Source: a virus. Taken from it: a stretch of 49,493 nucleotides of DNA. Positions 1,087 through 45,569 of the stretch are shown piece by piece. Made by a program: the position numbers and the translations under genes. The first letter of the stretch is position 1; each line of letters opens with the position of its first letter. The DNA lies in IMG/VR virus record IMGVR_UViG_3300035102_000435. The stretch is one strand, 5' to 3'. The notes beneath the pieces were generated by a model. That model was not told where the DNA came from, searched no databases, and worked only from the letters and a program-made list of their open reading frames with translations.

Positions 1087-1316
1087 AACCAATTATAGTA
1101 AATGGAAATATTGATACAGAAACCAAAGATGATATGGCCGACCTACTCAGAGACTTTAAGAATGACAACAAGGGCAAAAGAATTAAAATCGCAGGACCAT
1201 TTATTGAAACCGCACTAAGTGTTGCAAATTATGAGAATGTTGAAATTGAATTAAGTGAAAACTACAAAGAAATCAGATTGAATATTACTGATAAAGATGC
1301 CGAGGTCTCAGCTTAA
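1083..1316 (+). CDS. Hypothetical protein
   Basis: 77-aa ORF with stop-start overlap to the upstream gene. Confidence 0.4.
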   Translation: MKPIIVNGNIDTETKDDMADLLRDFKNDNKGKRIKIAGPFIETALSVANYENVEIELSENYKEIRLNITDKDAEVSA

Positions 1317-1728
1317 GGAGTTGGTAAAAGTGCCAGTTGTTAATACAAATGTAAAAGAAATAGGTTATGCTGCATTAGCTCTGGCCATAATTGAAGGATA
1401 TACACCAGAAGGAGCTCTGCAGGTAGTAGAAACAGGAGAAGAGCCAGTGACTAAGTTCAATGGAGACAATGATATTTTAGACATGATCATTTTAAAATTT
1501 ACTGAGGATATGACCTATAAAGAAATTGGTGAAGTTTATAATATCAGCGCAGATAATGCTTATAACAAGTTCAGAAGGTTAGCTGCTAAGAGAAAAACTG
1601 AAGACATGGTAAAACTTTATGATGCCGGACTTAATTTTAATCAGATAGCAAAAGTATTTAGGATGTCCCGGCAGGGAATCTGTTACAGATATAACAAAGC
1701 CAGGGGTGGAAACAATGAAGAGTCATGA
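1297..1728 (+). CDS. Hypothetical protein with C-terminal HTH-like segments
   Basis: 143-aa ORF; the C-terminal half has two helix-turn-helix-like stretches (MTYKEIGEVYNIS, FNQIAKVFRMSRQGI). Confidence 0.4.
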   Translation: MPRSQLKELVKVPVVNTNVKEIGYAALALAIIEGYTPEGALQVVETGEEPVTKFNGDNDILDMIILKFTEDMTYKEIGEVYNISADNAYNKFRRLAAKRKTEDMVKLYDAGLNFNQIAKVFRMSRQGICYRYNKARGGNNEES

Positions 1729-6754: not shown

Positions 6755-6991
6755 ATGAAAATGAGAACTAAAGTTGTGGATATAAAAGCAATGGTTAGGC
6801 ATTTAAACAGTGGATGGCTTAATGATACCGATCAAGAACTTTTTGATTTGCTAATAACCTGGGCTAGTAAAGGGTATAGAAAAGTAAATATAGATGAAAT
6901 AGCAGACGTTCTAGGTTGGCATAAAAACAAAGTAAAATATAGATTAAATAAATTAAGAGATAGAGGTGTATTAACATGCTCAACAGAATAG
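6755..6991 (+). CDS. Hypothetical protein (possible winged-helix DNA-binding)
   Basis: 78-aa ORF immediately upstream of ssb. Confidence 0.4.
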   Translation: MKMRTKVVDIKAMVRHLNSGWLNDTDQELFDLLITWASKGYRKVNIDEIADVLGWHKNKVKYRLNKLRDRGVLTCSTE

Positions 6992-7497
6992 TACTTATCG
7001 GCCGGTTGACACGAGATCCAGAACTTAGATACACCAGTAACGGAACACCGGTTTGTAACTTCACACTGGCCGTAGAAAGAAATTATACCAATCGAAATGG
7101 TGATCGTGATGTTGATTTTATCAGTATTGTCACCTGGAGGGGTTTGGCTGAAAACTGCGCCCGTCATCTTGGAAAAGGTAGACTCGTGGGAGTGGATGGC
7201 CAGCTGCATATTAGAAAAAGCGAAAATAACAATAGAACTTATATTAATCCTGAGGTTAATGCAGATAATGTCCGATTTTTGGACTTTGCAAACAACAATA
7301 ATCAGAGAAATAATTCACAAAATAATAACCGGCAGCAGAATTCTAAAAATAATAGTCAGAAAAGCAAAAAGCAACAGCCACAGAATAATCAAAATAATCA
7401 GAGTCAGCAACAATCTCAAAACCAGCAGCAAAATTATAATCAAAATCAAGGTGGAAACGGAAATTTTGACCCCGATGACTTCGATGTTCCCTTTTAG
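6976..7497 (+). CDS. ssb: Single-stranded DNA-binding protein with Q/N-rich linker
   Basis: N-terminal OB-fold sequence typical of bacterial and phage SSB (LIGRLTRDPELRYT...); acidic C-terminal tip DDFDVPF; long Q/N-rich linker. Confidence 0.85.
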   Translation: MLNRIVLIGRLTRDPELRYTSNGTPVCNFTLAVERNYTNRNGDRDVDFISIVTWRGLAENCARHLGKGRLVGVDGQLHIRKSENNNRTYINPEVNADNVRFLDFANNNNQRNNSQNNNRQQNSKNNSQKSKKQQPQNNQNNQSQQQSQNQQQNYNQNQGGNGNFDPDDFDVPF

Positions 7498-9069: not shown

Positions 9070-9639
9070 ATGATTTTATCAGATCAAGAAATTATGAGAG
9101 CTCATACAGAACACAATATAATAAGTGATTTTAACCCGGACCAGGTGGAGCCGGCATCATACGACCTGAGGTTAGCAGACAAGATATTGCTGGAAAGAAA
9201 TTATTCAAGACCAATAGGAATGAATGAAGAGGTTGAATATATTCCGACATCAATCAATGACCGGCCACTTAATCCACAAGAATTTGTTTTAGGCAGCACA
9301 GAGGAATACATCTCATTGCCGGACAATCTGGCTGCATTTGTTACCGGCAAGTCTACAATCGGTAGAAAAGCAATAGAAGTTCATCAGACAGCTGCATGGA
9401 TTGATCCGGGGTTTCAGGGCAACATCACTTTAGAGATTATTAATAATTCTTCTAACAAAAGAAAACTTAAGGCCGGAGAGTTAATTGCTCAGATAGTCTT
9501 TTTTAAAGTGTCCGGCACAGTATTGGAACCTTACGATGGTAAATATCAAAATTCAGATGGTGTAATTGGCAGCTTGATAAATCAAAAAACTGAAATTAAA
9601 CCGCTCTTTATCGGTGGCCCGGGCCAGAAAGGAAATTAA
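9070..9639 (+). CDS. dcd: dCTP deaminase (dUTPase-fold family)
   Basis: 189 aa; motifs GKSTIGR and HQTAAWIDPGFQGNITLE match the dCTP deaminase family and align with E. coli Dcd over the full length, from memory. Confidence 0.75.
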   Translation: MILSDQEIMRAHTEHNIISDFNPDQVEPASYDLRLADKILLERNYSRPIGMNEEVEYIPTSINDRPLNPQEFVLGSTEEYISLPDNLAAFVTGKSTIGRKAIEVHQTAAWIDPGFQGNITLEIINNSSNKRKLKAGELIAQIVFFKVSGTVLEPYDGKYQNSDGVIGSLINQKTEIKPLFIGGPGQKGN

Positions 9640-11997: not shown

Positions 11998-12837
11998 TTG
12001 GATTTTAGATGCAGTTTAAGCAAATGGAGAACTAACAAAAGGTCGGCCAGGTTAACACTACTGGTCGGCCCCAAAGATGCACCAATGGATTTATATAACT
12101 TCGAAGACAAACCGCTCGATATTATTTTAGACAGCAAAGTTAAAATAAAAGGAGAAATCAAAAATATTGAGCAGCTGGTAAAAGGAAAAATTAAAATAGT
12201 GATTGTTACTGCTGAAGATTATAAAAAAGAAATTATTAGTGGTGGCCCGGGCCTTAAAAATGCTGAAAATATAAAAGTCACATTTTTAATTGATGCTGAT
12301 GAACAGGTTAAAAGAATGAACATGATCAGTGACCGGCAGAGAAGAAAAGCTTTTGCCACAATTGGAGATATTGCAGACAGTATTGGTTATGCCAAAAACG
12401 AGATGTATGAGAAGTTAAAAGAAAAATTCTCTGAGGTGACTGGTTATGGAGAAATAAGTCTTTCAGATTGTTCAAGGAAAACTGCAGAAGATTTTATTGA
12501 TTTCTGTATCAGAATTGGTTATGAATATGGTGTCGCCTGGGAAGAACATCCCAGAGAGAGAATGGACAATCTTTATAAGTGGCTGCGGTTATGCCTTGAT
12601 CAGAAAATTTGTGCTGTATCTGGCCGGCCGGGAAAAGAATATTTAATCGATAACTCCGGAGCTATAATTCATAGTCACCACACAGATGCAATAGGAATGG
12701 GACAAAACAGGCAAAAATTTGATGATAGTAAGCTTAAAAAAATATCTCTATCTGCGGAATATCATGTTGAAGCGCACAATATAGGCTGGGAATCTTTCAA
12801 AAATAAATATCATGTTGAGGGCATTATCTATCCGTAA
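11998..12837 (+). CDS. Hypothetical protein with C-terminal His/Cys-rich (HNH-like) region
   Basis: 279-aa ORF; C-terminal CAVSG...HSHHTDA...HVEAHN suggests a metal-binding nuclease motif. Weak call. Confidence 0.4.
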   Translation: MDFRCSLSKWRTNKRSARLTLLVGPKDAPMDLYNFEDKPLDIILDSKVKIKGEIKNIEQLVKGKIKIVIVTAEDYKKEIISGGPGLKNAENIKVTFLIDADEQVKRMNMISDRQRRKAFATIGDIADSIGYAKNEMYEKLKEKFSEVTGYGEISLSDCSRKTAEDFIDFCIRIGYEYGVAWEEHPRERMDNLYKWLRLCLDQKICAVSGRPGKEYLIDNSGAIIHSHHTDAIGMGQNRQKFDDSKLKKISLSAEYHVEAHNIGWESFKNKYHVEGIIYP

Positions 12838-12876
12838 CGGATTAGATGCTAGCCCGGTGATTGGAGGCTGATTTTT

Positions 12877-13290
12877 TTGGCTTGGAGAAATGTAAGCGAA
12901 AAACAAGCAAAAGATTTGATTAAGGAAAAGAGAAAAGGTGCCGGTGTTAATGTTTTAGAAGAGGAAGAACAGAAAAAGCTAGCTCAATATCTTGATTATA
13001 AATATATGGAAGGTGATTGGTGCCATGTGCCTAATGAAGGCGACCACAAAGTTCAGTATTATGTTAAACAAAAAACTTTAGGTGTTAAATCAGGCGTGCC
13101 GGATGCATTAATTTTCAAGCCGGTTGCCGGATATAATGGAATTGCTATTGAACTTAAGAGGTTGAAAGGTGGCCGGGTTAGCGAAAGCCAAAAGAGATGG
13201 CTTAAGAGGTTTAAAGAGAACGGTTGGGCTGTTAAGTTAGCAGAGGGAGCAGATGCTGCTATAGAATTTATTGAAGAACTGGAGGGATAA
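12877..13290 (+). CDS. VRR-NUC domain nuclease
   Basis: 137 aa; GVPDALIF...IELKRLKGGRVSESQKRWL resembles the PD-(D/E)XK VRR-NUC pattern, from memory. Confidence 0.6.
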   Translation: MAWRNVSEKQAKDLIKEKRKGAGVNVLEEEEQKKLAQYLDYKYMEGDWCHVPNEGDHKVQYYVKQKTLGVKSGVPDALIFKPVAGYNGIAIELKRLKGGRVSESQKRWLKRFKENGWAVKLAEGADAAIEFIEELEG

Positions 13291-14895: not shown

Positions 14896-15139
14896 ATCTA
14901 AATTAATTTGTGAATACCAGGGCATCAAAAGACATATTCAAGTTCCAGTATTGTGTCCGAGGTGTAACAGAAGAACTTTTATTTTAGACAATCGAAAAGA
15001 AAAAGGTAAGTGTATAAGGTGTGGTAAAGAAATGACTGCTGATGAATTACTAGAAGTTGCAAAGGCTGATTACTTAGAAAAACACAGTGCTACTGACTAT
15101 CAAATTAGAAATAACAGAGGTGACTGCGGCAATGCCTAA
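14879..15139 (+). CDS. Hypothetical zinc-ribbon protein
   Basis: 86-aa ORF; CPRCN...CIRCG. Confidence 0.4.
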   Translation: MEMLSESKLICEYQGIKRHIQVPVLCPRCNRRTFILDNRKEKGKCIRCGKEMTADELLEVAKADYLEKHSATDYQIRNNRGDCGNA

Positions 15140-15584
15140 TAAAGAGAAAGAAATCATAGAAGAGTTGTTGAATAATTACAGAAGGATAAAAGCAAAAGTT
15201 GCAACAGAAGCAATAAAAGATGCTCCTGAATATGCACTGCAGGCTATTAATTATAATAAAGTAGGATCTGGCGAAACTAATAATACATATTCCGACGTGG
15301 AAGAGTTTGTTGCCAGGAAGTCTGAACAGGATAGCAAATATAAAAATCTAGTTAAAGCAAGAAATATAATCTATCACGCTTATATTAATTTGCCAATTGA
15401 GATGAGAAGGATAGTTGAATATTTTTATTTTAATGATATGTCAGTAAAAGATACAGCCAGTCGAGTTAATTGCTCAGAAAATACAATAAGAAATAGAAAA
15501 CCAGAAATATTTGCAGAATTAAAAGTTCACGGACTGATGTCTGCCTGGGAGTTCTGGCTTGAAAGTCGAGAATTATTGAGTTAA
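15132..15584 (+). CDS. Putative late-gene transcriptional regulator (ArpU/sigma-70 region-4-like)
   Basis: ORF in track from 15087; ATG at 15132 with AGAGGTGA upstream. C-terminal HTH-like segment and position directly upstream of the packaging genes are typical of ArpU-family late activators. Confidence 0.5.
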   Translation: MPNKEKEIIEELLNNYRRIKAKVATEAIKDAPEYALQAINYNKVGSGETNNTYSDVEEFVARKSEQDSKYKNLVKARNIIYHAYINLPIEMRRIVEYFYFNDMSVKDTASRVNCSENTIRNRKPEIFAELKVHGLMSAWEFWLESRELLS

Positions 15585-16191
15585 TTTTAATAAAAACATT
15601 AGTTTGGTGTTATTTTGGTATGATTTTGAGCTTTTTTTGAGTGGATTTTCTATATATAAAGAATATAATGATAGTATGAAGTAATTGTGAGTTTTTCCAT
15701 TATTACTTATTTATTTCCTATTTGGTTTTTTACCGGCTTAATTCCACTATTTAGGCCGGGTTTTTTCATACTACCTCTATTATAATATGTGTGGCTCGGG
15801 CTCAATGTCCGGGCCATTACTCGTTTATAGAGCTATGAATCAGCCAGAATGCAGCACGAACTACCAGCCGCAGCTACTGGATAGCAGAGTAGAAAGGTGT
15901 CAGCTCAGCACTCCCGCTGGCTCCGCAGACCACCAGAATTCGCGGGTCCTTCTGAGAATCTAGAGCCTTGCGGTGACGCTGAATCCCAAAAACTGGCTAG
16001 ATTTCGGTGAAAAAAGTTGAATTTCATACAGTCGATAACTTTTTATATTTTTTAAAATTGAATATCAAACTTATATAATAACTGTCATGACAACGTTCGC
16101 GGCAGTTTTATTTTTACCATTTTAAAAACACTTGTTTACAGTATTTTACTGAACTTACGGTGATTTTAATTTCAGTGAAAAGGAGGGTCTT

Positions 16192-16749
16192 ATGAAATTC
16201 GAAGTTTCAGCTGAAGAGCTCGCAGAATTTATAGATATTTCCGAGCGCAGAGTTTATCAGTTGGTCGATGCAGAAATTATAGATAGAGTTACAGAAGGAA
16301 AATATGATCTTAAGGAATGCGCTAAAAAATATTATGAGTTTAAATTTGGAAGCGGTAATAGAGATTTGAATGAAGTAAAAGCTGAGCATGAAGAAATCAA
16401 AAAACGGATTAGTGAAATTAAACTTGCTAAGCAGCAAAATAAAGTTCATGAAGCTTCAGATGTAGAATTTGCAATGACCAATATATTGACTACCTTTAGA
16501 AATAGAATTTTAGCGATACCTCCAAAATTATCTCCTCAAATAACAGGAATGAAAAACACAAATAAAATTAGTGATCTAATGAACTCTGAATTAAAAGAAG
16601 CTCTTGAAGAATTGTCAGGATATGATCCATCTTTATTTGTTGATGATGAAGATCTATACGAAGGTGATGCAGTTGAAGTCGAAAACGAAAAAGTTATTCA
16701 GGAAGGTTCTCAAGACAGTAGCACCTCCACCGGATCTAAAAATAAGTGA
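16192..16749 (+). CDS. terS: Terminase small subunit
   Basis: 185-aa ORF immediately upstream of and overlapping the large terminase; N-terminal HTH-like region, acidic C-terminus; RBS AAGGAGGG upstream. Confidence 0.6.
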   Translation: MKFEVSAEELAEFIDISERRVYQLVDAEIIDRVTEGKYDLKECAKKYYEFKFGSGNRDLNEVKAEHEEIKKRISEIKLAKQQNKVHEASDVEFAMTNILTTFRNRILAIPPKLSPQITGMKNTNKISDLMNSELKEALEELSGYDPSLFVDDEDLYEGDAVEVENEKVIQEGSQDSSTSTGSKNK

Positions 16750-18529
16750 CTGGGCTGATCAATATAGAAAATTACCTCGCGAAACATCAGCCGAGCCTGG
16801 ACAATGGAGAACAAACCGAGCACCTTATCAACGAAAAATAATGGATTCTATCAATGATCCAGAAGTTGAAAAAGTTGTTGTAATGAGCAGTTCTCAGGTT
16901 GGAAAGTCTGAAATAGTTATTAATGTTATGGGCTATTATATTGATATTGATCCGTGTCCAATGTTATTAGTGCAGCCAACTGTAGATGATGCACAGGATT
17001 TTTCAAAAAGAAGGATAGCGCCTTCGATTAAAGCTACAGATTCATTAAGAGAAAAAGTTTCGGAAAGTAAAAGCAAAGATAGCAGCAATACTATTTTGAT
17101 GAAATCTTTCCCTGGTGGTTTTTTAGCTCTTGCTGGTTCTAACTCTCCTTCTGGTTTGGCAAGTAGACCAGTAAGAATTTTATTGTGCGATGAAATTGAT
17201 AGGTATCCATCTTCTGCAGGAAGTGAAGGGGATCCATTAAAAATTGCAGAAAGAAGAACAACTACTTTTTGGAATAAGAAAAAAGTTTATGTTTCCACAC
17301 CGACAATTAAAGATGCTTCCAGAATTGAAGATGAGTATAAAGCTGGAACTCAGGAAAAGTGGAAACTTAAATGTCCTCATTGTGGAGATTATCAATATAT
17401 ACATCTTCAAAATGTTAAATTTGAGTATGAGAAAGATAAAAAAGGCAATTATAAAGTCTGGGATCTAAAATATGAGTGTACTGAATGTCATAATAAATTT
17501 GATGAACACACCTGGAAGAATCAACCAGGTAAATGGATAGCAGAAAATGATGATGTTATTAAGACAAGAAGTTTTCATCTTAATGCTTTTGTAAGTCCCT
17601 GGACTCCCTGGGAAGAAATTATGGAAGAATGGCTGAGTGTGAAGAAAGATCCAGAACAGTATAAAGTATTTAAAAATACAATGCTCGGGTTACCCTGGGA
17701 GGAAAAAGGAGAAATTGAGGATGAAGAATTTCTTTTAAAACGCAGGGAAGAATATGAGGCAGATGTGCCGGATGGAGTTCTGCTGCTAACCGCTGGTGTT
17801 GATGTTCAGGATGACAGATTAGAATATGAGATAGCAGGCTGGGGAAAAGGGCAAGAGTCCTGGGGCATTGAGTACGGCATGATAATGGGCGCTCCTGATA
17901 TGCCGTCAACTTGGCAGATGCTTTCTGATAAATTAGACCAGACTTTCAGGACAGAGTCAGGTAAAGGAATGAAAGTTGCCTGCACCTGTGTTGACTCTGG
18001 AGGTCATTTCACTTCAGATGTTTATAAATTTTGCAAAAAGAACGAACATAGAAGAATATTTGCTATTAAAGGCCGGGGTGGCCCGGGTATTCCTCTGATA
18101 GATAAGATTTACCGCAGTAAAAAAGAAAATGCTGCGGTTTTTATTTTGGGTGTTGATTCTGGTAAATCAACTATCATGTCAAGACTTAAGATAAAAGAAA
18201 GAGGCGATGGATATTGTCACTTCCCTGCTAATAAAGAAAGAAATTATGATCGCAGTTATTTTCAAGGACTCATATCTGAGAAACTGGTCCGGAGAAAAAG
18301 GAGTGGCCAGTACAGAATGGTTTGGGAAAAAATCAGCCCTAATCAGAGAAATGAGCCTTTAGATTTAAGAAATTATGCTTTAGCTGCACTTAATATACTT
18401 AATCCTAGCTTTGATGCACTTGAAAAAAGGCTAAAACAAAAAGGAAATGGCAGTGTTAGTACAAGCAATTCTAAATCTAGAAGAAAAAAGAAGCGCCGCG
18501 GTGTGGTTAATAAGGGTGTTTCAGTATAA
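16622..18529 (+). CDS. terL: Terminase large subunit, lambda GpA-like (start uncertain)
   Basis: N-terminal region (PPPDLKISDWADQYRKLPRE...YQRKIMDS...SQVGKSE) aligns with lambda gpA from memory; the 5' end overlaps terS in another frame, with candidate starts at 16604, 16622, 16643 and 16667. Confidence 0.85.
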   Translation: MIHLYLLMMKIYTKVMQLKSKTKKLFRKVLKTVAPPPDLKISDWADQYRKLPRETSAEPGQWRTNRAPYQRKIMDSINDPEVEKVVVMSSSQVGKSEIVINVMGYYIDIDPCPMLLVQPTVDDAQDFSKRRIAPSIKATDSLREKVSESKSKDSSNTILMKSFPGGFLALAGSNSPSGLASRPVRILLCDEIDRYPSSAGSEGDPLKIAERRTTTFWNKKKVYVSTPTIKDASRIEDEYKAGTQEKWKLKCPHCGDYQYIHLQNVKFEYEKDKKGNYKVWDLKYECTECHNKFDEHTWKNQPGKWIAENDDVIKTRSFHLNAFVSPWTPWEEIMEEWLSVKKDPEQYKVFKNTMLGLPWEEKGEIEDEEFLLKRREEYEADVPDGVLLLTAGVDVQDDRLEYEIAGWGKGQESWGIEYGMIMGAPDMPSTWQMLSDKLDQTFRTESGKGMKVACTCVDSGGHFTSDVYKFCKKNEHRRIFAIKGRGGPGIPLIDKIYRSKKENAAVFILGVDSGKSTIMSRLKIKERGDGYCHFPANKERNYDRSYFQGLISEKLVRRKRSGQYRMVWEKISPNQRNEPLDLRNYALAALNILNPSFDALEKRLKQKGNGSVSTSNSKSRRKKKRRGVVNKGVSV

Positions 18530-20599: not shown

Positions 20600-21731
20600 G
20601 TTTTGGTCTTTTAAAAATATTGAAAATGAAGATTCAGAAAGTCTTGAATTGAGAATCGAAGGCGAGATATTAGATAGTGAAAATTCTTGGTTATATGACT
20701 GGCTTGGCATACCTTATGCTAGCAAGAACCAACTTAAGGACACTTTAATAAAAAACAAAGAAAAAGACATAACAGTTTGGATTGACAGTCCTGGAGGTTC
20801 AGTTTTTGCAGCTGCTGGTATATACACTCTGCTTAAAGAGCATAAAGGAAAAGTCACTGTAAAAATAGACAGTAAAGCAATTTCAGCAGCAAGTATGATT
20901 GCAATGGCAGCAGATGAAAGATATATTTCACCGGTTGGCCAAATTATGATTCATAATCCTATTCCGGCAAACGGAGTTTTTGGTGACGCTGAGGAACTAA
21001 GAAAAGTTGCTGATGTGTTAGACGAAATTAAAGAAGCAATTGTTAACGCTTATATAGCTGGTACTGGTCGACCAAAAGATGAAATCTGGGAAATGATGAA
21101 TCAAGAAACCTGGATGAGTGCAAATACGGCTGTAAAAGAAAAATTTGCTGATAAAGTTCTCTATCAGGATGAAGATGAAGAATTTAACGTCAAAAATATT
21201 AAGGATTATGAATTTAAAAGGTTGCAAATAGTTAACAGTATGGAAACATCTATTAAAGAGATGATTTCTATAAAATCAAATGAACAGGCTGTAGAAAACA
21301 AAAATAAGGAAGATAATTCTCAAAAGGAAGGTGATCGGGACGTGGAAATTAAAAACCTTGAAGATTTAATTAATGCTTACCCGGATTTAGTGAAGGAAGC
21401 TGAAAACAAAGCAGTTGAGTCAGAAAGAAAAAGAATTAAAAATATTGATGAGATTGCAGACAATATTGATCAGGACTTGGTTAATAAAGCTAAGTTCGAT
21501 GAACCAATGGATGCAAAAGATTTAGCTTTTGAAGCAATGAAATCTGATAAGAAAAAAGCTGGTCAGTATCTTAACAATGTTAGAGAAGATACTGAAGAGT
21601 CAGGGGTAGAAGATGTAGAAGCTAACAATTCAGCCGAAGAAGATTCTGGCCCTAAAAATGTGGATGATAAAGCTAAAAGTATAGTCGCTAAATTTGACGC
21701 TAAAAGGAGAGGAGTGAAGATTGATGGCTAA
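20571..21731 (+). CDS. Prohead protease/scaffold (S49/ClpP-like, lambda gpC-like)
   Basis: ClpP/S49-type motifs (WIDSPGGSVFAAAG, SAASMIAMAADERY, MIHNP) with an acidic coiled-coil C-terminal half; no in-frame ATG before the protease domain, so the start is non-ATG (TTG 20571 or 20592). Confidence 0.75.
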   Translation: MKRGRQKLTKFWSFKNIENEDSESLELRIEGEILDSENSWLYDWLGIPYASKNQLKDTLIKNKEKDITVWIDSPGGSVFAAAGIYTLLKEHKGKVTVKIDSKAISAASMIAMAADERYISPVGQIMIHNPIPANGVFGDAEELRKVADVLDEIKEAIVNAYIAGTGRPKDEIWEMMNQETWMSANTAVKEKFADKVLYQDEDEEFNVKNIKDYEFKRLQIVNSMETSIKEMISIKSNEQAVENKNKEDNSQKEGDRDVEIKNLEDLINAYPDLVKEAENKAVESERKRIKNIDEIADNIDQDLVNKAKFDEPMDAKDLAFEAMKSDKKKAGQYLNNVREDTEESGVEDVEANNSAEEDSGPKNVDDKAKSIVAKFDAKRRGVKIDG

Positions 21732-22098
21732 TTATGAAGTTGTTGCTAACAATGAACCTGATAATTTAGTTGCTGGCCATGAAGTAGAATTGCTGACTGC
21801 TGCTTTAACAATTGCTCAAGGACAAAGCATTCTTGAAAGAGGTAGTGTTCTGGGTGTAGTTGAAGCTGACGGCAAAGGAAAACTTTGTGATAAAGCAAGC
21901 GCCGATGGCAGTCAAGTTGCTAAATATGTATTGCCAGAAGATGTTGATACTTCTGGAGGAGATGTAACTTTAGCAGTTTGGAAAACAGGTATTTTTAATA
22001 GAAATGCTGTAATTTTTGGTGGGGATAGCACCCCGGCTGATCACGAAGATGAATTAAGAGATGTAAATATACATCTTAGAGATTCTATTAATTATTAA
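21724..22098 (+). CDS. Head decoration protein (gpD-like)
   Basis: About 124 aa, between protease and major capsid gene; ATG at 21724 after AGGAGAGGAGTGA. Confidence 0.55.
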   Translation: MANYEVVANNEPDNLVAGHEVELLTAALTIAQGQSILERGSVLGVVEADGKGKLCDKASADGSQVAKYVLPEDVDTSGGDVTLAVWKTGIFNRNAVIFGGDSTPADHEDELRDVNIHLRDSINY

Positions 22099-27457: not shown

Positions 27458-29668
27458 ATGGCAAGTAGAACCACTTATCAAACTCATTTTCTTTTGGGAG
27501 CAAAAGTTCAATCTAGTATGCATAAATCTTTTTCTAAAGTCCAAAAAAATATGAAAAACATCAGAAAAAGTGCAGGCTATACCGAAAGCGCTTATTCTAA
27601 ATTAGGTAGAACCATGAAAAGAGCCTTAGGCGCTGCCGGAATATACTTTAGTGCCAGAACAATAGTCACCGCTTTAAAAAGTTCTACTCAAGCAGCAATG
27701 GAATTTGAAGATCAAATGGCTGATGTTGGTACTCTCCTAGACGGTAATGTAAAAGAAAAGTTAGGTAATTATAGTGAACAGGTTAAACAAACTGCAATTG
27801 CAACTGGTATTTCTACTGAACAACTTAACAGAGGATTATATGAAACTATATCAGCATTAGGAGAAAGTGCTGATACTTATGATATTTTTCAAAAGGCTGC
27901 AGAAAATGCTCGCGGTGGTAATGCTGATGTTCAAAACGTAGTTAAATTTCTTTCAGCCACAATGAAAGGTTATGGAGATGTAAGTGCAGAAACTGCTCAA
28001 AAAGTATCTGATTTAGGCTTTCAGACAGTTAAATTAGGACAAACAAGTTTCCCTGAATTAGCACAGAATATGGGTGATGTAGTACCTCTTGCTGGTGCAA
28101 TGGGAGCCAATATGGAGTCTGTTTTCGGGGCGATGGCCACTCTGACTGGTGTTACTGGTGATACTGCAAAAGTAAGTACTCAGTTAAGAGGTGTTTTTAC
28201 TGCTCTGACTAAACCAACTTCTGCTATGAAAGAAGTAATAAACGGTTTAGGGTACGAATCTGGTGCAGCTATGATCAAAGCGAAAGGATTCCAGGGAACG
28301 CTAAACCTTTTGAAGAAAGCAACCGGAGGATCTACAGAACAACTAAGTAAAATGTTTGGCCGAGTTGAAGCGTTAAATGCAGTTATTGCTTTAACTGGAG
28401 CCCAGTCTGAAAATTTCACAACTAAAACAGAAGCTATGTATCAAGCGGTTGGAGCAAGCAACGAAGCTTTTAAAGAAAAAGTTAAAACCTCTAAAGCGCT
28501 AAGAGAACGTTTTGGTCAATTAATTAATGTTTTAAAAATTAATTTTGGTAACAAAGTTTTACCTTATATTAATCAAGGTTTAGAGTTTATTCTTGTAAAT
28601 TACAAGGAAATGGGAGCTCAAGCCAAAGCAGCTATGGAGCCTGTTCGAGCAACATATAATTTTATAAAAAATAATTGGACTGCAATAGAACCAATTGTTG
28701 TTGGAATAACTTCTGCAATGGTAGCATATAAAACAACTCAAATTGCTTTGACTGCTGCTCAAAAAGCAGGAATGATTGTTCAAGCAATTTCTAAAGCTTA
28801 TAGTACTTTTCAGGCCACAATGAATGCAGCAAGATATTCTACATTAGCAGCAAGCAAAGCTCAGGTTGCGCTTAATCTTGCAATGTCAGCTAATCCAGCT
28901 GCAGTTGTAGCAATAGCAATAGGAGCTCTGGCTACTGCTGGATATCTAGTCTATAAAAATTGGGACAAAATACTACCTAAATTAAGAGCTTTCTATAATC
29001 TGATTAAAAACTTACCAGTAGTTGAAGCTTTTATAGGTGGAATTACTGATATATATGAATCTGGAAAAGAGACTTTTAATGGTTTAGTCAACTTTGTAAG
29101 TGGTGTTTTCACTGGCAACTGGTCAAAAGCTTGGGATGGAGTAGTTCAGGCGGTTGGTGGTTCATTTTCTTTAATAGGAGATTTAGTTAAGCTGCCAATC
29201 AATAATACTATAGGTCTGATTAATACAGCTCTCGCAGGTATTGGAAAGATTGATGTCTCAATTCCCGACTGGGTACCAGGCGTTGGTGGTAAAAGTTTTG
29301 GCCCGGATATTCCAGAGATTCCGTTATTAGCAAAAGGAACAAATAATTTTGGCGGGGGTATGGCTATAGTTGGAGAACAAGGTCCTGAATTAGTTAACAT
29401 GCCACAGGGAACTCAGGTAACAACTGCAACGAAAACTGAAACTCTTATTCAAAAACTAAAAGAAACTCCTTCTAAAGCCACTCAAGTATTAAACAACTTA
29501 AAATCTGATAATTCGACTAAAAATACTAAAATTGAAATTAATATTGAAAATATAATTAAAGGAAATGCTGATAAAAAAGATTTAGAACGCTCAAATAGAG
29601 AATTGAGAGATATGATTGAAGAAGTATTTCTTGATTTAGGCGGAAATCCACGAACCGATTTCAGTTAA
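27458..29668 (+). CDS. Tail tape measure protein
   Basis: 736 aa, Ala/Gly-rich, helical and hydrophobic segments; position after the chaperone. Confidence 0.8.
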   Translation: MASRTTYQTHFLLGAKVQSSMHKSFSKVQKNMKNIRKSAGYTESAYSKLGRTMKRALGAAGIYFSARTIVTALKSSTQAAMEFEDQMADVGTLLDGNVKEKLGNYSEQVKQTAIATGISTEQLNRGLYETISALGESADTYDIFQKAAENARGGNADVQNVVKFLSATMKGYGDVSAETAQKVSDLGFQTVKLGQTSFPELAQNMGDVVPLAGAMGANMESVFGAMATLTGVTGDTAKVSTQLRGVFTALTKPTSAMKEVINGLGYESGAAMIKAKGFQGTLNLLKKATGGSTEQLSKMFGRVEALNAVIALTGAQSENFTTKTEAMYQAVGASNEAFKEKVKTSKALRERFGQLINVLKINFGNKVLPYINQGLEFILVNYKEMGAQAKAAMEPVRATYNFIKNNWTAIEPIVVGITSAMVAYKTTQIALTAAQKAGMIVQAISKAYSTFQATMNAARYSTLAASKAQVALNLAMSANPAAVVAIAIGALATAGYLVYKNWDKILPKLRAFYNLIKNLPVVEAFIGGITDIYESGKETFNGLVNFVSGVFTGNWSKAWDGVVQAVGGSFSLIGDLVKLPINNTIGLINTALAGIGKIDVSIPDWVPGVGGKSFGPDIPEIPLLAKGTNNFGGGMAIVGEQGPELVNMPQGTQVTTATKTETLIQKLKETPSKATQVLNNLKSDNSTKNTKIEINIENIIKGNADKKDLERSNRELRDMIEEVFLDLGGNPRTDFS

Positions 29669-42647: not shown

Positions 42648-44189
42648 CTATGGTCTGTAATCTTCAATATTAATTGTGGATTCAAAACGGTACGCCCCAC
42701 CTCCACCATCAACATCCACAATATAATCTATGGTTATATTGTTTTCATATACGGTGACTTTTTTAACGAAAGTTTTGACGATCCTTCGCTGATCTTCAAG
42801 GCTTTCGTTTTTAATATTTCTATACTTCATTAATTCTTGAACAATTCTTTCTTTTGATGGAGAATTATTCTCGGCTTGAAACCTTGCTTCCTCAAGGTAC
42901 ATTTCATAATCTGCTTTTTCATTTTCAAGAGAGTTTAATTTTTCATTCATTGAAGGCTGATATAAACCTTCTGCTACTGCTTCAGTAATGTTATCAATTT
43001 TTTTCTGAACTTCTTTTAAATGTTTTTCAAATCTTTTAATGTCAGAATTTATTTCTTTATTTTCAGTTTTAGCAAATTTGTATACCTTGGCAGCTATATT
43101 TTTGATTGCAGCAGGCGAAAATAATTCTTCTATCATATTATCTAAAACTGCACCTTCTACAAAATCTTTACTTATTGAAGGCATGTCACAATCTCTTTTT
43201 CTCTTTCTGGTAGAACATTCATAAGAAGTGTAGACAGTTTTATTTTTTCCAGCAATTCTTCTATTTCCAACCATTGCTCCCTCGCATTTTCCACACTTAA
43301 TTAAACCGGCAAGAATATAGATTTCTTTAGCTTTATTATTAACAGACTTTTTATTACCTTCCATTCTTTTTTTCACCTTCCTCCAGGTATGATCATCAAT
43401 TATTCTTGGCATTCCACCTTCAATTCTAATAATTTTCTTTTTATCTTTTGACTTATGGTGATTTCTCTTTCCAGCCTTTTTACTTACAGATCTGTTAAAA
43501 ATATAAACGCCCCGATACTTTTCATTAATCAAAATATCATGTAAACTAGGCCTGCTAAAATTACCACCAGTCTGAGTCTTGAAACCCCTCTTTTTAAGCT
43601 CGTCAATTATTTCTGAATAACCATGGCCATCGGCATACATTTCAAAAATTAACTTCACACTTTTAGCCTGCTCTTCATTGATAATGTAAGTCTTATCTTC
43701 TGCAACATCGAACCCAAGGGGTGCTAAACCTCCATTATGTTTGCAATTTAAAGCGTTCTCTTTCATTCCTTTTTTAACTTCTCTGCGTAAATTAGCAGAA
43801 TAATATTCATTATACCCTTCCAATACAGATTCTAATATTATAGATTCAGGACTACCATCCAAATTTTCTAATGCAGAAATAACTTCGACACCATTCTCTC
43901 TTAATTTTCTTTTATATACAGCGGAATCATATCTATTTCTAGCAAAACGATCTAGTTTATGAACAATCACAAAATCAAACAAATCTTTTTTACTGTCGCT
44001 GACCATGTCTAAAAAAGCTGGGCGATCAGAAGTTGTAGCTGATTTCGCTTTATCAGTATAAATTTTATTTATTTTTATATTATTTTTGGCTGCGTACTCC
44101 TTAATTTCTCTAACCTGAGCATCTATTGATTCTTCTCTTTGGTTACTGGAGCTAAAACGTGCATAAATTGCAGCTGTTGGCTTACTCAT
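42648..44189 (-). CDS. Large serine recombinase (integrase)
   Basis: 513 aa; N-terminal resolvase-type catalytic region (AAIYARFSSSNQ with the catalytic Ser), recombinase domain, Cys-rich zinc ribbon and coiled-coil C-terminus; RBS AGGAGG. Confidence 0.9.
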   Translation of the reverse strand: MSKPTAAIYARFSSSNQREESIDAQVREIKEYAAKNNIKINKIYTDKAKSATTSDRPAFLDMVSDSKKDLFDFVIVHKLDRFARNRYDSAVYKRKLRENGVEVISALENLDGSPESIILESVLEGYNEYYSANLRREVKKGMKENALNCKHNGGLAPLGFDVAEDKTYIINEEQAKSVKLIFEMYADGHGYSEIIDELKKRGFKTQTGGNFSRPSLHDILINEKYRGVYIFNRSVSKKAGKRNHHKSKDKKKIIRIEGGMPRIIDDHTWRKVKKRMEGNKKSVNNKAKEIYILAGLIKCGKCEGAMVGNRRIAGKNKTVYTSYECSTRKRKRDCDMPSISKDFVEGAVLDNMIEELFSPAAIKNIAAKVYKFAKTENKEINSDIKRFEKHLKEVQKKIDNITEAVAEGLYQPSMNEKLNSLENEKADYEMYLEEARFQAENNSPSKERIVQELMKYRNIKNESLEDQRRIVKTFVKKVTVYENNITIDYIVDVDGGGGAYRFESTINIEDYRP

Positions 44190-44205
44190 GTTTATCCTCC
44201 TAAGT

Positions 44206-44877
44206 TTATAACTTATGCATAACTTCTATAGCTTTACCAATAATTCTAGCCTGATCATTTTTTATAATGATATTTTCATAATTAGGATTCTCAGGTTGCA
44301 AAACCCATGAACCGTTAGTTTTTATTACTCTTTTTAAAGTTGCTTCATCAGAATTAACCATTACTACTGCTATCTCATTATTTTCAACTGTACTCTGACG
44401 TCTGATCAAAACAAGATCCCCCTCGTTAATACCTGCATTTATCATACTGTCACCTTTGACTTTAAGAAAGAAATATTGACCATTTGAAACCCTATCAGCT
44501 GGTACTTTTTTGTAGAATAAAATATTTTGTTCAGCCAAAACTGGCTGCCCTGCAGAAATTGTTCCGATAACCGGAATAGATTCGACTTCTTTTTTTATGA
44601 TGTCATCATAATTATATTTAGATTTTGTTTCTTTTAACTCATTAACTTTTCCAGATATGTAACCCGCTTTAATCATCAGAATGCCATCCGCAATATTTAA
44701 AGCTTGCTCTAATTTTTTGATAATTTGTGGAGATGGAGGGTTTTTAGTTTTGCCATTTAATATTCTAGAAATGTAAGAGTGATCTATATCAGCCTGTCTT
44801 CCCAACTCTCTGATAGAACTTATTGCCGAATCATCAATTTCTTTTTGAAGAGTTTCTCTAAAATCTTTTATACTCAT
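44206..44877 (-). CDS. CI-like repressor (HTH plus S24 LexA-type peptidase domain)
   Basis: 223 aa; N-terminal HTH and C-terminal S24 motifs (GDSM...KRV); divergent from a Cro-like gene. Confidence 0.85.
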   Translation of the reverse strand: MSIKDFRETLQKEIDDSAISSIRELGRQADIDHSYISRILNGKTKNPPSPQIIKKLEQALNIADGILMIKAGYISGKVNELKETKSKYNYDDIIKKEVESIPVIGTISAGQPVLAEQNILFYKKVPADRVSNGQYFFLKVKGDSMINAGINEGDLVLIRRQSTVENNEIAVVMVNSDEATLKRVIKTNGSWVLQPENPNYENIIIKNDQARIIGKAIEVMHKL

Positions 44878-45276: not shown

Positions 45277-45408
45277 ATGAAAGTTTTTCAAGACAATAAA
45301 AAAATAATTCTAACTAATGACGAAAATGAAATTCTTACTAAATTAAGCACTGATGAAGCAAAACAATTGGTTGAAAAATTAGTTACTGCTATAGAGGAGG
45401 AAAAGTAA
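45277..45408 (+). CDS. Hypothetical small protein
   Basis: 43-aa ORF translated by hand. Confidence 0.3.
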   Translation: MKVFQDNKKIILTNDENEILTKLSTDEAKQLVEKLVTAIEEEK

Positions 45409-45569
45409 TGTCTCTGGCAATAAAAAGAGTAACTGTTGATAGAAAAACTGGCACTGTTACAAATAAAGAAATTATAGATAATAATCCAGATATAGAGGAG
45501 AGTGAAGTTTATTCTCCTTTTTCAAAAATGGTATATGACAAAATTATGAGTCAGGAGGTAAACAATTAA
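45408..45569 (+). CDS. Hypothetical small protein
   Basis: 53-aa ORF translated by hand; stop-start overlaps on both sides. Confidence 0.3.
   Translation: MSLAIKRVTVDRKTGTVTNKEIIDNNPDIEESEVYSPFSKMVYDKIMSQEVNN

What the first reader, a model, noticed from the sequence alone, without database searches (positions are those of the whole stretch)
15780..16030. GC-rich non-coding island upstream of the small terminase
The roughly 600-bp gap between the late regulator and terS has no ORF of 60 aa or more, and its centre is markedly more GC-rich than the rest of the genome, with several short inverted repeats. With a GpA-type terminase, the cos packaging site is expected just upstream of terS, so this is the prime cos candidate; a structured RNA is the alternative. 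I found no convincing tRNA cloverleaf by eye.
Basis: partly seen in the sequence, partly recalled or inferred. Interest (0 to 1): 0.55.

Follow-up and report, generated by a model that had tools for sequence, protein, structure and literature searches.

The report
Lambda-type cos site beside GC-rich tract
The GC-rich gap in front of the small terminase gene ends in an ordinary lambda-style cos site, where the phage cuts its DNA for packaging; most of the GC-rich stretch itself is a separate, lineage-specific non-coding tract of unknown role.

Summary
The 607-bp gap (15585-16191) has no ORF of 60 aa or more, and bin 15801-16000 is the most GC-rich 200-nt bin of the window (0.535; genome about 0.33).

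The island has two parts.

(1) Its 3' edge and the next ~60 bp form a lambda-type cos site:
- a cosQ-like GGGTCCT (15944-15950);
- cosN, with a predicted 12-nt 5' cohesive end GGTGACGCTGAA (15972-15983, uncertain by 1-3 nt);
- an I2-like segment (15984-16007);
- an A-tract and R-like repeats, cosB-like (16009-16070).

This rests on collinear homology to:
- the experimentally mapped ends of Paenibacillus phage Lily (GGTGCGCGTGAG);
- the PhageTerm-set start of phage Lelie;
- the record ends of Shimadzu and nd4;
- two viral contigs that start inside cosN;
- lambda's own cosQ/cosN/R3 layout.

A 39-nt block (15968-16006) is identical in ~18-kb satellite-like elements that lack a terminase large subunit.

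(2) The GC-rich centre (15787-15943) is not cos. It is C-rich and T-poor, specific to this phage group, and replaced by a homing-endonuclease gene in one natural variant. It matches no Rfam family. Two + strand hairpins have modest covariation support, so it may be an RNA leader; its function is unknown.

Verdict: a new member of a known kind, of modest interest.

The parts
15733..15766 (+). Intrinsic terminator closing the upstream (regulator) operon: stem 15733-15741 / 15751-15759, then a T-run 15761-15766.
   Evidence: Fold dG -13.7 kcal/mol, z -4.1. L007 keeps the hairpin despite substitutions. The left boundary of the variable slot lies here: L179 homology ends at 15739.
15781..15786 (+). 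TATAAT, a -10-like hexamer with no good -35. It sits about 5 nt before hairpin H1, inside a stretch (15763-15847) that barely varies (1-2 variable columns) across group-1 phages.
   Evidence: Sequence and conservation. The promoter scan did not call it, so a promoter role is inferred only.
15787..15943 (+). Body of the GC island: a group-specific, C-rich and T-poor non-coding tract at what would be the extreme right end of the virion chromosome. Function unknown.
   Evidence: Composition. No Rfam, tRNA or tmRNA match. The 58-aa ORF is broken in L002 and L007. No homology to the tract at the same place in group 2. Replaced by a homing-endonuclease-like gene in L179.
15791..15817 (+). Hairpin H1: 11 bp including 3 G-U pairs, 5-nt loop.
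   Evidence: dG -19.9 kcal/mol, z -5.3. One G-U to A-U change in L009/L010; otherwise invariant. The G-U pairs would be A-C mismatches on the - strand.
15896..15924 (+). Hairpin H5: 8 bp with a conserved 11-nt loop.
   Evidence: Two compensatory double changes (G-C to U-A and C-G to U-A), both in L007. Stability alone is not significant (z -1.3).
15944..15950 (+). cosQ-like element GGGTCCT, 28 nt upstream of the predicted left nick.
   Evidence: Identical to lambda GGGTCCT, which lies 30 nt before lambda's left end. GGT.C is invariant in all 14 aligned cos regions. Kept, with an unrelated AT-rich spacer, in L179. The role of cosQ in termination is from PMC4669245.
15968..16006 (+). 39-nt block identical between this phage group and the TerL-less group-2 elements. 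It covers cosN plus the I2-like segment.
   Evidence: Identity stops where the cosB-like sequence begins.
15972..15983 (+). Predicted cohesive end GGTGACGCTGAA: a 12-nt 5' overhang, with nick positions uncertain by 1-3 nt.
   Evidence: Aligns with the Lily overhang GGTGCGCGTGAG, mapped by ligation, PCR and Sanger sequencing. Also aligns with the start of the Lelie record (PhageTerm, 5' cos), with the duplicated termini of the Shimadzu and nd4 records, and with contigs L023 and L024, which start at ATGCTGGCGAGCCCC.
15984..16007 (+). I2-like segment TCCCAAAAACTGGCTAGATTTCGG between cosN and cosB.
   Evidence: CCC-AAAA and (C)TAG are conserved across relatives. In lambda, I2 is needed for termination (PMC4669245).
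16009..16070 (+). cosB-like region: A-tract 16009-16015, and direct repeats AAAGTTGAATTTCATAC (16013-16029) and AAAATTGAATATCAAAC (16054-16070). TTTC at 16022-16025 lies 50 nt from the predicted end, where relatives have a CGTTTC(C/G) motif 50-51 nt from their ends and lambda has its R3 element about 53 nt from its end.
   Evidence: Repeats and aligned TTTC column. Lambda TerS contacts bp 55-63 of R3 (PMC9026076). TerS binding here is inferred, not tested.
16051..16079 (+). Sigma-70-like promoter candidate TTTAAA-17-TATAAT (10 of 12 matches) between cos and terS.
   Evidence: Conserved in group 1 and in L179.
16080..16116 (+). Terminator-like hairpin followed by TTTTATTTTT, upstream of the terS ribosome-binding site.
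   Evidence: z -2.2. Among relatives the substitutions fall mostly in the loop. The simple terminator scan did not call it.
16192..16749 (+). terS, the small terminase subunit.
   Evidence: phrog_57, E 3.8e-33. 37% identical to Lily TerS, E 1e-32.
16604..18529 (+). terL, GpA-family large terminase. The start codon is uncertain: the longest ORF starts at 16604, while the JGI gene call corresponds to 16841.
   Evidence: PF05876 and PF20454. 46-53% identical to the TerL of Lily, Shimadzu, Lagaffe and Lelie. Gene calls.

Best explanation
The island has two parts. Its 3' edge and the ~60 bp beyond it are a lambda-type cohesive-end site. During packaging, TerS would bind the cosB-like repeats to the right of the cut site and position the GpA-family TerL on cosN. 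TerL would then make staggered nicks around GGTGACGCTGAA (15972-15983) to give 12-nt 5' cohesive ends. DNA would be packaged rightwards, starting with terS. When the motor reaches the next cos on the concatemer, the cosQ-like GGGTCCT (15944-15950), cosN and the I2-like segment would direct the terminating cut. The virion chromosome would therefore begin at about 15972 and end just after the GC-rich tract. The location of cos and its subsite layout are shown by homology to mapped ends. The exact nick positions, TerS binding to the repeats and the cosQ function are inferred from the lambda paradigm. The GC-rich centre (15787-15943) is a separate cargo or leader tract in a variable slot between the early-operon terminator and cosQ. 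It most likely forms + strand RNA hairpins if it is transcribed. It is not required for the cos function.
For: 1. The gene order is lambda-like: terS, GpA terL, a gpW-like DUF6148/head-tail adaptor protein, then a lambda-family portal.
2. A motif derived only from relatives hits the window once, at 15945-15989, with 0.0 (cosQ plus cosN) or 0.017 (cosN alone) matches expected per simulated window.
3. Lily has TerL 46% and TerS 37% identical to the window's. Its 12-nt 5' overhang GGTGCGCGTGAG, determined experimentally, aligns with window 15972-15983.
4. The Lelie record, set to start at a PhageTerm-predicted 5' cos, begins in the same aligned region, 2 nt to the right on the CCC anchor. The Shimadzu and nd4 records carry the overhang at both ends. 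Viral contigs L023 and L024 begin inside cosN.
5. Lambda has GGGTCCT 30 nt before its left end and a CGTTTCC R3 element about 53 nt after it. The window has GGGTCCT 28 nt before the predicted end and ATTTC 50 nt after it.
6. In L179 the whole upstream tract and the cosQ-cosN spacer are replaced, yet GGGTCC is kept 27 nt before GCGGTG (26 nt in the window). This points to selection on cosQ and its spacing.
7. About 18-kb elements with a DnaB-like helicase, a tyrosine integrase and their own TerS homologue, but no TerL-sized ORF, carry the identical 39-nt cosN/I2 block and cosQ, with a different sequence at the cosB position. Enterobacterial PICIs have the same layout (PMC9026076).
Against: No physical end has been mapped for this phage. 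None of the related group-1 and group-2 contigs recovered ends at the predicted nick, which is expected for prophage or replicating DNA but gives no direct support. Mapped or recorded ends in relatives differ by 1-3 nt relative to the CCC anchor, so the overhang could be 9-12 nt long. The R-like repeats rest on motif resemblance only. The window's TerS shows no BLASTP similarity to lambda Nu1. The GC-rich centre remains functionally unexplained.
Confidence: 0.82

Rival explanations
1. The GC-rich centre (15787-15943), possibly extending through cos to the hairpin and T-run at 16080-16116, is a structured non-coding RNA or 5' leader. It would be transcribed on the + strand from the -10-like TATAAT at 15781. 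Possible roles are stabilising the late transcript or acting in attenuation or antitermination ahead of terS. This does not exclude the cos reading; it would explain the part of the island that cos does not.
For: The tract starts right after an intrinsic terminator and a conserved TATAAT. Hairpin H1 has z -5.3 and three G-U pairs. H5 has two compensatory changes in L007. The + strand folds better than the - strand, both here (z -1.16 against +0.54) and in the non-homologous group-2 tract (z -2.79 against -0.57). In the group-2 hairpin, all five substitutions among three sequences preserve pairing. High GC in an AT-rich genome is typical of structured RNAs (general knowledge).
Against: No Rfam family matches inside the GC island, even at E up to 10. 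The whole-island z-score is not significant. Covariation comes from one or two sequences only. There is no -35, and the promoter scan does not call the site. The tract is absent from L179 and from many relatives with the same cos. There is no expression data.
Confidence: 0.3
2. The GC-rich centre is a DNA-level accessory of packaging or injection: a C-rich, T-poor tract just upstream of cosQ. It might aid termination at the downstream cos, for example by slowing the motor or binding a protein, or it might protect the chromosome end that is packaged last and so presumably enters the cell first.
For: C-rich, T-poor non-coding tracts lie directly upstream of the cosQ-like motif in this window, in the group-2 elements, and in Shimadzu, Lagaffe, nd4 and Lelie (T 0.03-0.19). 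CAGC and AGCA are the most enriched 4-mers across these tracts (z about 5).
Against: The tract is absent in Lily, L030, L031, L032, L035 and lambda (L028 shows only a weak C excess), and it is replaced by a coding gene in L179. No such element is known for lambda. The enrichment test used mononucleotide shuffles only. The mechanism is speculative.
Confidence: 0.12
3. The GC-rich centre is non-functional cargo, or a decayed remnant of a mobile or foreign sequence, sitting in a variable slot at the right genome end.
For: In L179 the same slot, from the terminator to 4 nt before cosQ, holds a homing-endonuclease-like gene. The composition is foreign to the genome. The 58-aa ORF is decaying. No homologues were found outside the group.
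Against: The stretch 15763-15847 is almost invariant (1-2 variable columns) across group 1, even in L007, which diverges on both sides of it. The stem substitutions preserve pairing.
Confidence: 0.2
4. The island encodes a small protein: the 58-aa ORF at 15787-15963.
For: The reading frame is open in six of eight variants.
Against: There is a premature stop in L002 and the frame is broken in L007. Substitutions are mostly non-synonymous. There is no Shine-Dalgarno sequence before the ATG.
Confidence: 0.02

Closest known systems
Bacteriophage lambda cos (cosQ-cosN-cosB)
   Same: Position immediately upstream of terS and a GpA-type terL. An identical 7-bp GGGTCCT lies 28 nt (lambda 30 nt) before the left end. 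A GC-rich, roughly 12-nt cohesive-end region of the form G-GGTG/GCGG...GA. An A/T tract follows, then a (C/A)NTTTC element 50-53 nt from the end (subsite functions from PMC4669245).
   Different: The cohesive-end sequence differs (GGTGACGCTGAA against GGGCGGCGACCT). No IHF-site/R2/R1 arrangement is evident. TerS is not detectably similar to Nu1 by BLASTP. The host is unknown; the genome is low-GC (about 0.33). The ends are not mapped here.
cos of Paenibacillus phage Lily (KP296792): 12-nt 5' overhang GGTGCGCGTGAG
   Same: Closest relative with experimentally mapped ends (PMC4472882). TerL is 46% and TerS 37% identical. The joined ends align collinearly with the window's cosQ-like, cosN, CTAG, A/T-tract and TTTC elements.
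   Different: 8 of the 12 overhang positions are identical. Lily has no GC- or C-rich tract upstream of cosQ.
cos sites of lambda-helper PICIs (cos-rpp layout; Fillol-Salom 2019; PMC9026076)
   Same: The group-2 ~18-kb elements carry cosQ and cosN/I2 identical to the phage's, a diverged sequence at the cosB position, and a TerS-like gene immediately downstream. This mirrors PICI cos, which has helper-like cosQ and cosN but a different cosB.
   Different: The group-2 protein is a full-length TerS homologue (47% identical), not an Rpp. The elements also carry a tape-measure homologue. Satellite status is inferred from gene content only.
Leader RNAs between a late promoter and a terminator (for example lambda pR'-tR' 6S RNA, HK022 put)
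   Same: The layout resembles these: a -10-like box, stable hairpins, then a hairpin with a U-run about 320 nt downstream, just after the late-regulator gene. This comparison draws on my own knowledge of those systems.
   Different: No sequence or Rfam similarity, no evidence of transcription, and the neighbouring regulator is sigma-region-4-like, not Q-like.

Membership tests
lambda-type cos site | Lies directly upstream of terS and a GpA-family terL in a lambda-like head-gene module | tested here: met
   terS 16192-16749 (phrog_57), terL with PF05876 and PF20454, DUF6148/head-tail adaptor, Phage_portal_2.
lambda-type cos site | cosN: sequence homologous to experimentally mapped cohesive ends of a related terminase system | tested here: met
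   Window 15972-15983 aligns with the Lily overhang. The relative-derived motif is unique in the window, with at most 0.017 matches expected by chance. Contigs L023 and L024 start inside cosN.
lambda-type cos site | cosQ: a conserved 7-bp element about 25-30 bp upstream of cosN | tested here: met
   GGGTCCT at 15944-15950, identical to lambda's and at a similar distance. GGT.C is invariant in 14 aligned sites. Retained in L179 despite replacement of the spacer.
lambda-type cos site | cosB: TerS-binding R elements to the right of cosN, with R3 about 50-63 bp from the end | tested here: inconclusive
   Direct repeats at 16013-16029 and 16054-16070, and TTTC 50 nt from the end aligned with CGTTTC(C/G) of relatives and with lambda R3. 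Binding was not tested.
lambda-type cos site | Virion DNA has unique ends with complementary single-stranded overhangs at this site | not testable with these tools
   No virion reads are available. None of the related contigs ends at the site.
known structured RNA family (Rfam) | Covariance-model match at or near the gathering score | tested here: not met
   No hits at gathering thresholds in the whole window. Only chance-level hits (E 1-10) in 15500-16250, none inside the GC island.
novel structured RNA | Conserved secondary structure supported by covariation and stability beyond shuffled controls | tested here: inconclusive
   H1 z -5.3. H5 has two compensatory pairs, both from one sequence. 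Whole island z -1.16. Group-2 tract z -2.79.
tRNA / tmRNA | Cloverleaf or tmRNA detected by ARAGORN | tested here: not met
   No genes found in the window.
small protein-coding gene | ORF conserved among relatives, with purifying selection and a ribosome-binding site | tested here: not met
   The ORF is truncated in L002 and broken in L007. Changes are mostly non-synonymous. There is no Shine-Dalgarno sequence.

The most novel reading that the evidence does not exclude
The C-rich, T-poor non-coding tract directly upstream of cosQ may be a previously undescribed cis-acting element, RNA or DNA, that goes with lambda-type cos sites. It occurs here, in the satellite-like elements that share this cos, and in the gut phages Shimadzu, Lagaffe, nd4 and Lelie. 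It might aid packaging termination or protect or prime the chromosome end that presumably enters the cell first.
Probability: 0.15. Interest if true: 0.55.

Novelty: new member of a known kind. Interest (0 to 1): 0.3.

Why it matters
The result places the packaging site of an uncultured temperate phage lineage to within a few bases and predicts its cohesive end. This lets the genome be drawn in virion order, with terS first and the GC-rich tract last. The lambda layout of cosQ, cosN, I2 and R3, including the exact cosQ heptamer GGGTCCT, is also present in phages of Paenibacillus, Roseburia and Faecalibacterium and in this low-GC uncultured lineage. The same cos block sits on ~18-kb elements without a large terminase, a candidate helper-satellite pair that resembles the cos-PICIs of enterobacteria. 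The GC-rich centre remains a small open question.

Tried and rejected
- Rfam at gathering and at permissive thresholds: nothing in the island.
- ARAGORN: no tRNA or tmRNA.
- blastn of the whole gap against 50,697 phage records: no match.
- Whole-island folding on both strands: z -1.16 and -0.62, not significant.
- Coding test of the 58-aa ORF: rejected.
- nhmmer of the group-1 and group-2 tracts against each other and against all held loci: no cross-similarity.
- Genome-collection scan with the 20-mer: only three chance hits in GC-rich MAGs, so no host was identified.
- A 14-mer scan of the viral contigs returned about 120 mostly chance hits and was not informative.
- Looked for contigs of this lineage ending at the predicted nick, using three further pattern scans and an exact-protein look-up: none found. 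Two contigs end at 15663 and 15677, which is not the cos site.
- A fixed-spacing cos pattern missed the site because the spacer is 1 nt shorter here. A variable-spacing regex found it uniquely.
- Chi-like reading of the CAGC enrichment: considered, but the motif is on the wrong strand for an E. coli-type Chi (GCTGG core) acting on an enzyme entering at the right end. This is my own reasoning from the RecBCD and AddAB mechanism and was not tested.
- Long-range pairings between the tract and cos that RNAalifold predicted: not credited, because the cos side is invariant for DNA-level reasons and cannot show covariation.

Full report
**Observation.** The gap between the regulator gene (15087-15584; Sigma70_r4_2, phrog_36 'transcriptional regulator') and terS (16192-16749; phrog_57) is 607 bp. 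Its longest ORF is 58 aa. Bin 15801-16000 has GC 0.535, the highest of all 200-nt bins of the window. The next highest is 0.475, and the genome is about 0.33. GC peaks at 0.60 in 15850-15949. The excess is mainly C on the + strand. C is 0.30 over 15794-15943, the top of 4935 150-nt windows, and T is depleted to 0.19.

**Known classes excluded.** Rfam gives no hit at gathering thresholds in the whole window. At E up to 10 it gives only chance-level hits, all outside the GC island. ARAGORN finds no tRNA or tmRNA. The 58-aa ORF at 15787-15963 is truncated in L002 and broken in L007. Its substitutions are mostly non-synonymous, and it has no Shine-Dalgarno sequence. The whole-island folding energy is not significantly below that of shuffled sequences (z -1.16 on the + strand, -0.62 on the - strand).

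**Relatives.**
- Ten viral contigs encode the same TerS at 85-99% identity and share the gap at 90-98% identity. I call these group 1.
- Scans with the conserved 3' part of the island found a second set of elements, group 2: L040, L041, L046, L049, L050, L180 and L186. They share only a 66-nt block with the window (15941-16006). It comprises CGCGGGTCC, a variable spacer, and a 39-nt stretch (15968-16006) that is identical. The GC-rich sequence upstream and the sequence downstream are unrelated.
- A metagenome contig, L179, is a group-1 phage in which window 15740-15968 is replaced by about 1.4 kb. The insert encodes a homing-endonuclease-like protein (phrog_559 E 5.6e-77, phrog_9084). Its stop codon lies 4 nt before GCGGGTCCC. 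The spacer to GCGGTG is AT-rich and unrelated, but its length is 27 nt against 26 nt in the window.

The island therefore consists of a variable body and a strongly constrained 3' block.

**The 3' block is a cos site.** The closest characterised TerL relatives (46-53% identity) include Paenibacillus phage Lily, Roseburia phage Shimadzu, Faecalibacterium phages Lagaffe and Lelie, and phage nd4.
- The ends of Lily were determined by ligation, PCR and Sanger sequencing: a 12-nt 5' overhang GGTGCGCGTGAG (PMC4472882). That is the start of its GenBank record.
- Joining the record ends of Lily gives ...AGGTACTTTGGGGAGAATGTAAAGGGGCG|GGTGCGCGTGAG|CCCGAAATCCAGCTAGTT... The window reads ...GGGTCCTTCTGAGAATCTAGAGCCTTGC|GGTGACGCTGAA|TCCCAAAAACTGGCTAGATT....
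- The Shimadzu and nd4 records carry the overhang sequence at both ends (GTGCTTGCGAG and GCTGGCGAG). Lelie was predicted by PhageTerm to have 5' cohesive ends, and its record was set to start at that site. It starts GGTCCGAAAGCCCGAAAA, preceded by AGGTAC-N26.
- Six further TerL-related viral contigs have the same motif upstream of terS. Contigs L023 and L024 begin at ATGCTGGCGAGCCCC, inside cosN, as expected for physical ends.
- Lambda shows the same layout: GGGTCCT 30 nt before its left end GGGCGGCGACCT, then an A/T tract, then R3 (CGTTTCC) about 53 nt in. The window has the identical GGGTCCT 28 nt before the predicted end, and ATTTC 50 nt after it.
- In a 14-sequence alignment, GGT.C, CCC, the A (and in 13 of 14 the G) of (CT)AG, and TTTC are invariant or nearly so.
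- A regular expression built only from the relatives matches the window once, at 15945-15989. Chance expectation is 0.0 for cosQ plus cosN and 0.017 for cosN alone.
- The window's TerS is 37% identical to Lily's (E 1e-32).

The roles of the subsites come from the lambda literature. cosB and cosN are needed for initiation. cosQ, cosN and I2 are needed for termination. cosQ is a highly conserved 7-bp site (PMC4669245).

**Predicted anatomy.**
- cosQ-like element: 15944-15950.
- Cohesive end: 15972-15983.
- I2-like segment: 15984-16007.
- A-tract: 16009-16015.
- R-like direct repeats: 16013-16029 and 16054-16070.

The mapped or recorded ends of relatives differ by 1-3 nt relative to the CCC anchor, so the nick positions carry that uncertainty.

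**Independent comparative support.** The group-2 elements come from contigs of 17.7-18.8 kb. They encode a DnaB-like helicase, a tyrosine integrase, an HTH_17 protein, a tape-measure homologue and their own TerS homologue (47% identical). They have no ORF large enough to be a TerL or a portal. They keep cosQ and the cosN/I2 block identical to the phage's, then diverge exactly where the cosB-like sequence begins. Enterobacterial PICIs that exploit lambda-like helpers have this arrangement: helper-like cosQ and cosN, a different cosB, and cos next to a TerS-like gene (PMC9026076). This fits a block read by the helper's TerL and a cosB read by each element's own TerS.

**The GC-rich centre (15787-15943).** It is not part of the conserved cos. 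It is unrelated between groups 1 and 2 and absent from L179. It lies between an intrinsic terminator (15733-15766, z -4.1) and cosQ. A conserved -10-like TATAAT (15781-15786), with no -35, precedes it. Two hairpins have some support. H1 (15791-15817) has z -5.3, three G-U pairs and one G-U to A-U change. H5 (15896-15924) has two compensatory changes, both in L007. The + strand folds better than the - strand both here and in the group-2 tract (z -2.79 against -0.57). In the main hairpin of the group-2 tract, all five substitutions among three sequences preserve pairing. This is suggestive of a + strand RNA, but the evidence is thin.

The tract also belongs to a recurring compositional pattern. 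C-rich, T-poor non-coding stretches lie directly upstream of the cosQ-like motif in group 2, Shimadzu, Lagaffe, nd4 and Lelie. They do not occur in Lily, L030-L032, L035 or lambda, and L028 shows only a weak C excess. CAGC and AGCA are the most enriched 4-mers in these tracts. I cannot assign a function. The candidates are a leader or small RNA, a DNA-level aid to termination or injection, or inert cargo in a variable slot.

**Between cos and terS.** There is a promoter-like site (16051-16079, 10 of 12 matches). It is followed by a hairpin with a T-run (16080-16116, z -2.2), whose variation among relatives falls mostly in the loop.

**Verdict.** The cos site is a new member of a well-known kind. 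The centre is an unexplained, lineage-specific tract with weak evidence for RNA structure.

Noticed in passing
L040, L046, L049, L050 (also L041, L180, L186); window 15941-16006, 16192-16749, 21721-22098, 27458-29668, 45280-45549: About 18-kb elements share with this phage only the cos block, a TerS homologue (47% aa identity), a tape-measure homologue (about 60% aa identity), one small head-region protein and about 280 nt near the immunity region. They encode a DnaB-like helicase, a tyrosine integrase and an HTH_17 protein, but no TerL-, portal- or capsid-sized ORF. They look like phage satellites using the helper's cos.
   Followed up: partly
L179 (reverse strand), replacing window 15740-15968: A natural variant carries a 414-aa homing-endonuclease-like gene (phrog_559, phrog_9084, DUF2726-like C-terminus) in place of the GC-rich tract. 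The gene ends 4 nt before cosQ. The slot between the early terminator and cosQ is therefore a variable cargo site.
   Followed up: yes
window 16154-16163 and 16169-16181, compared with 15967-15976 and 16001-16013: A partial second copy of the cos flanks (CTTACGGTGA ... ATTTCAGTGAAAA) sits right before the terS ribosome-binding site, as if cos once lay directly upstream of terS (as it does in group 2) and about 187 bp were later duplicated or inserted. GAATTTCATA (16019-16028) is also an exact inverted repeat of the terS start region 16191-16200.
   Followed up: no
Right ends of LR596903 (Shimadzu), MG711461 (Lagaffe), OR777945 (nd4), PP479942 (Lelie); loci L192, L194, L196, L200: The 175-600 nt before cosQ in these phages is unannotated and extremely T-poor (T 0.03-0.08) and C- or A-rich. 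It contains short repeated motifs (ACAGC, CACAGCG, CCCGATGAC). The last 950 nt or so of Lily is also unannotated but has ordinary composition.
   Followed up: partly
window 15663 and 15677: Two independent viral contigs (L003 and L008) end 14 bp apart in the AT-rich stretch just after the regulator gene, about 300 bp upstream of cos. This is probably an assembly break at a mosaic boundary rather than a genome end.
   Followed up: no
window 16604-16841: The terL start is ambiguous. The longest ORF starts at TTG 16604 and overlaps terS by 146 nt. The public gene call corresponds to 16841 (562 aa). Alignments to relatives begin at residues 7-36 of the long form, which favours an upstream start.
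   Followed up: no
window 1297-1728 and 15087-15584: There are two separate proteins containing sigma-70 region 4. The one next to cos also shows a weak DUF722 hit in public annotation.
   Followed up: no
window 42648-44877 (- strand), 78-650, 6976-7497, 9070-9639, 11998-13290: Temperate-phage layout: serine integrase, S24/CI-like repressor, G39P-like helicase loader, SSB, dCTP-deaminase-like protein, HNHc_6 and VRR-NUC nucleases. The gene order suggests the window is a circular permutation of the virion chromosome, not tested. That chromosome would start at about 15972.
   Followed up: no
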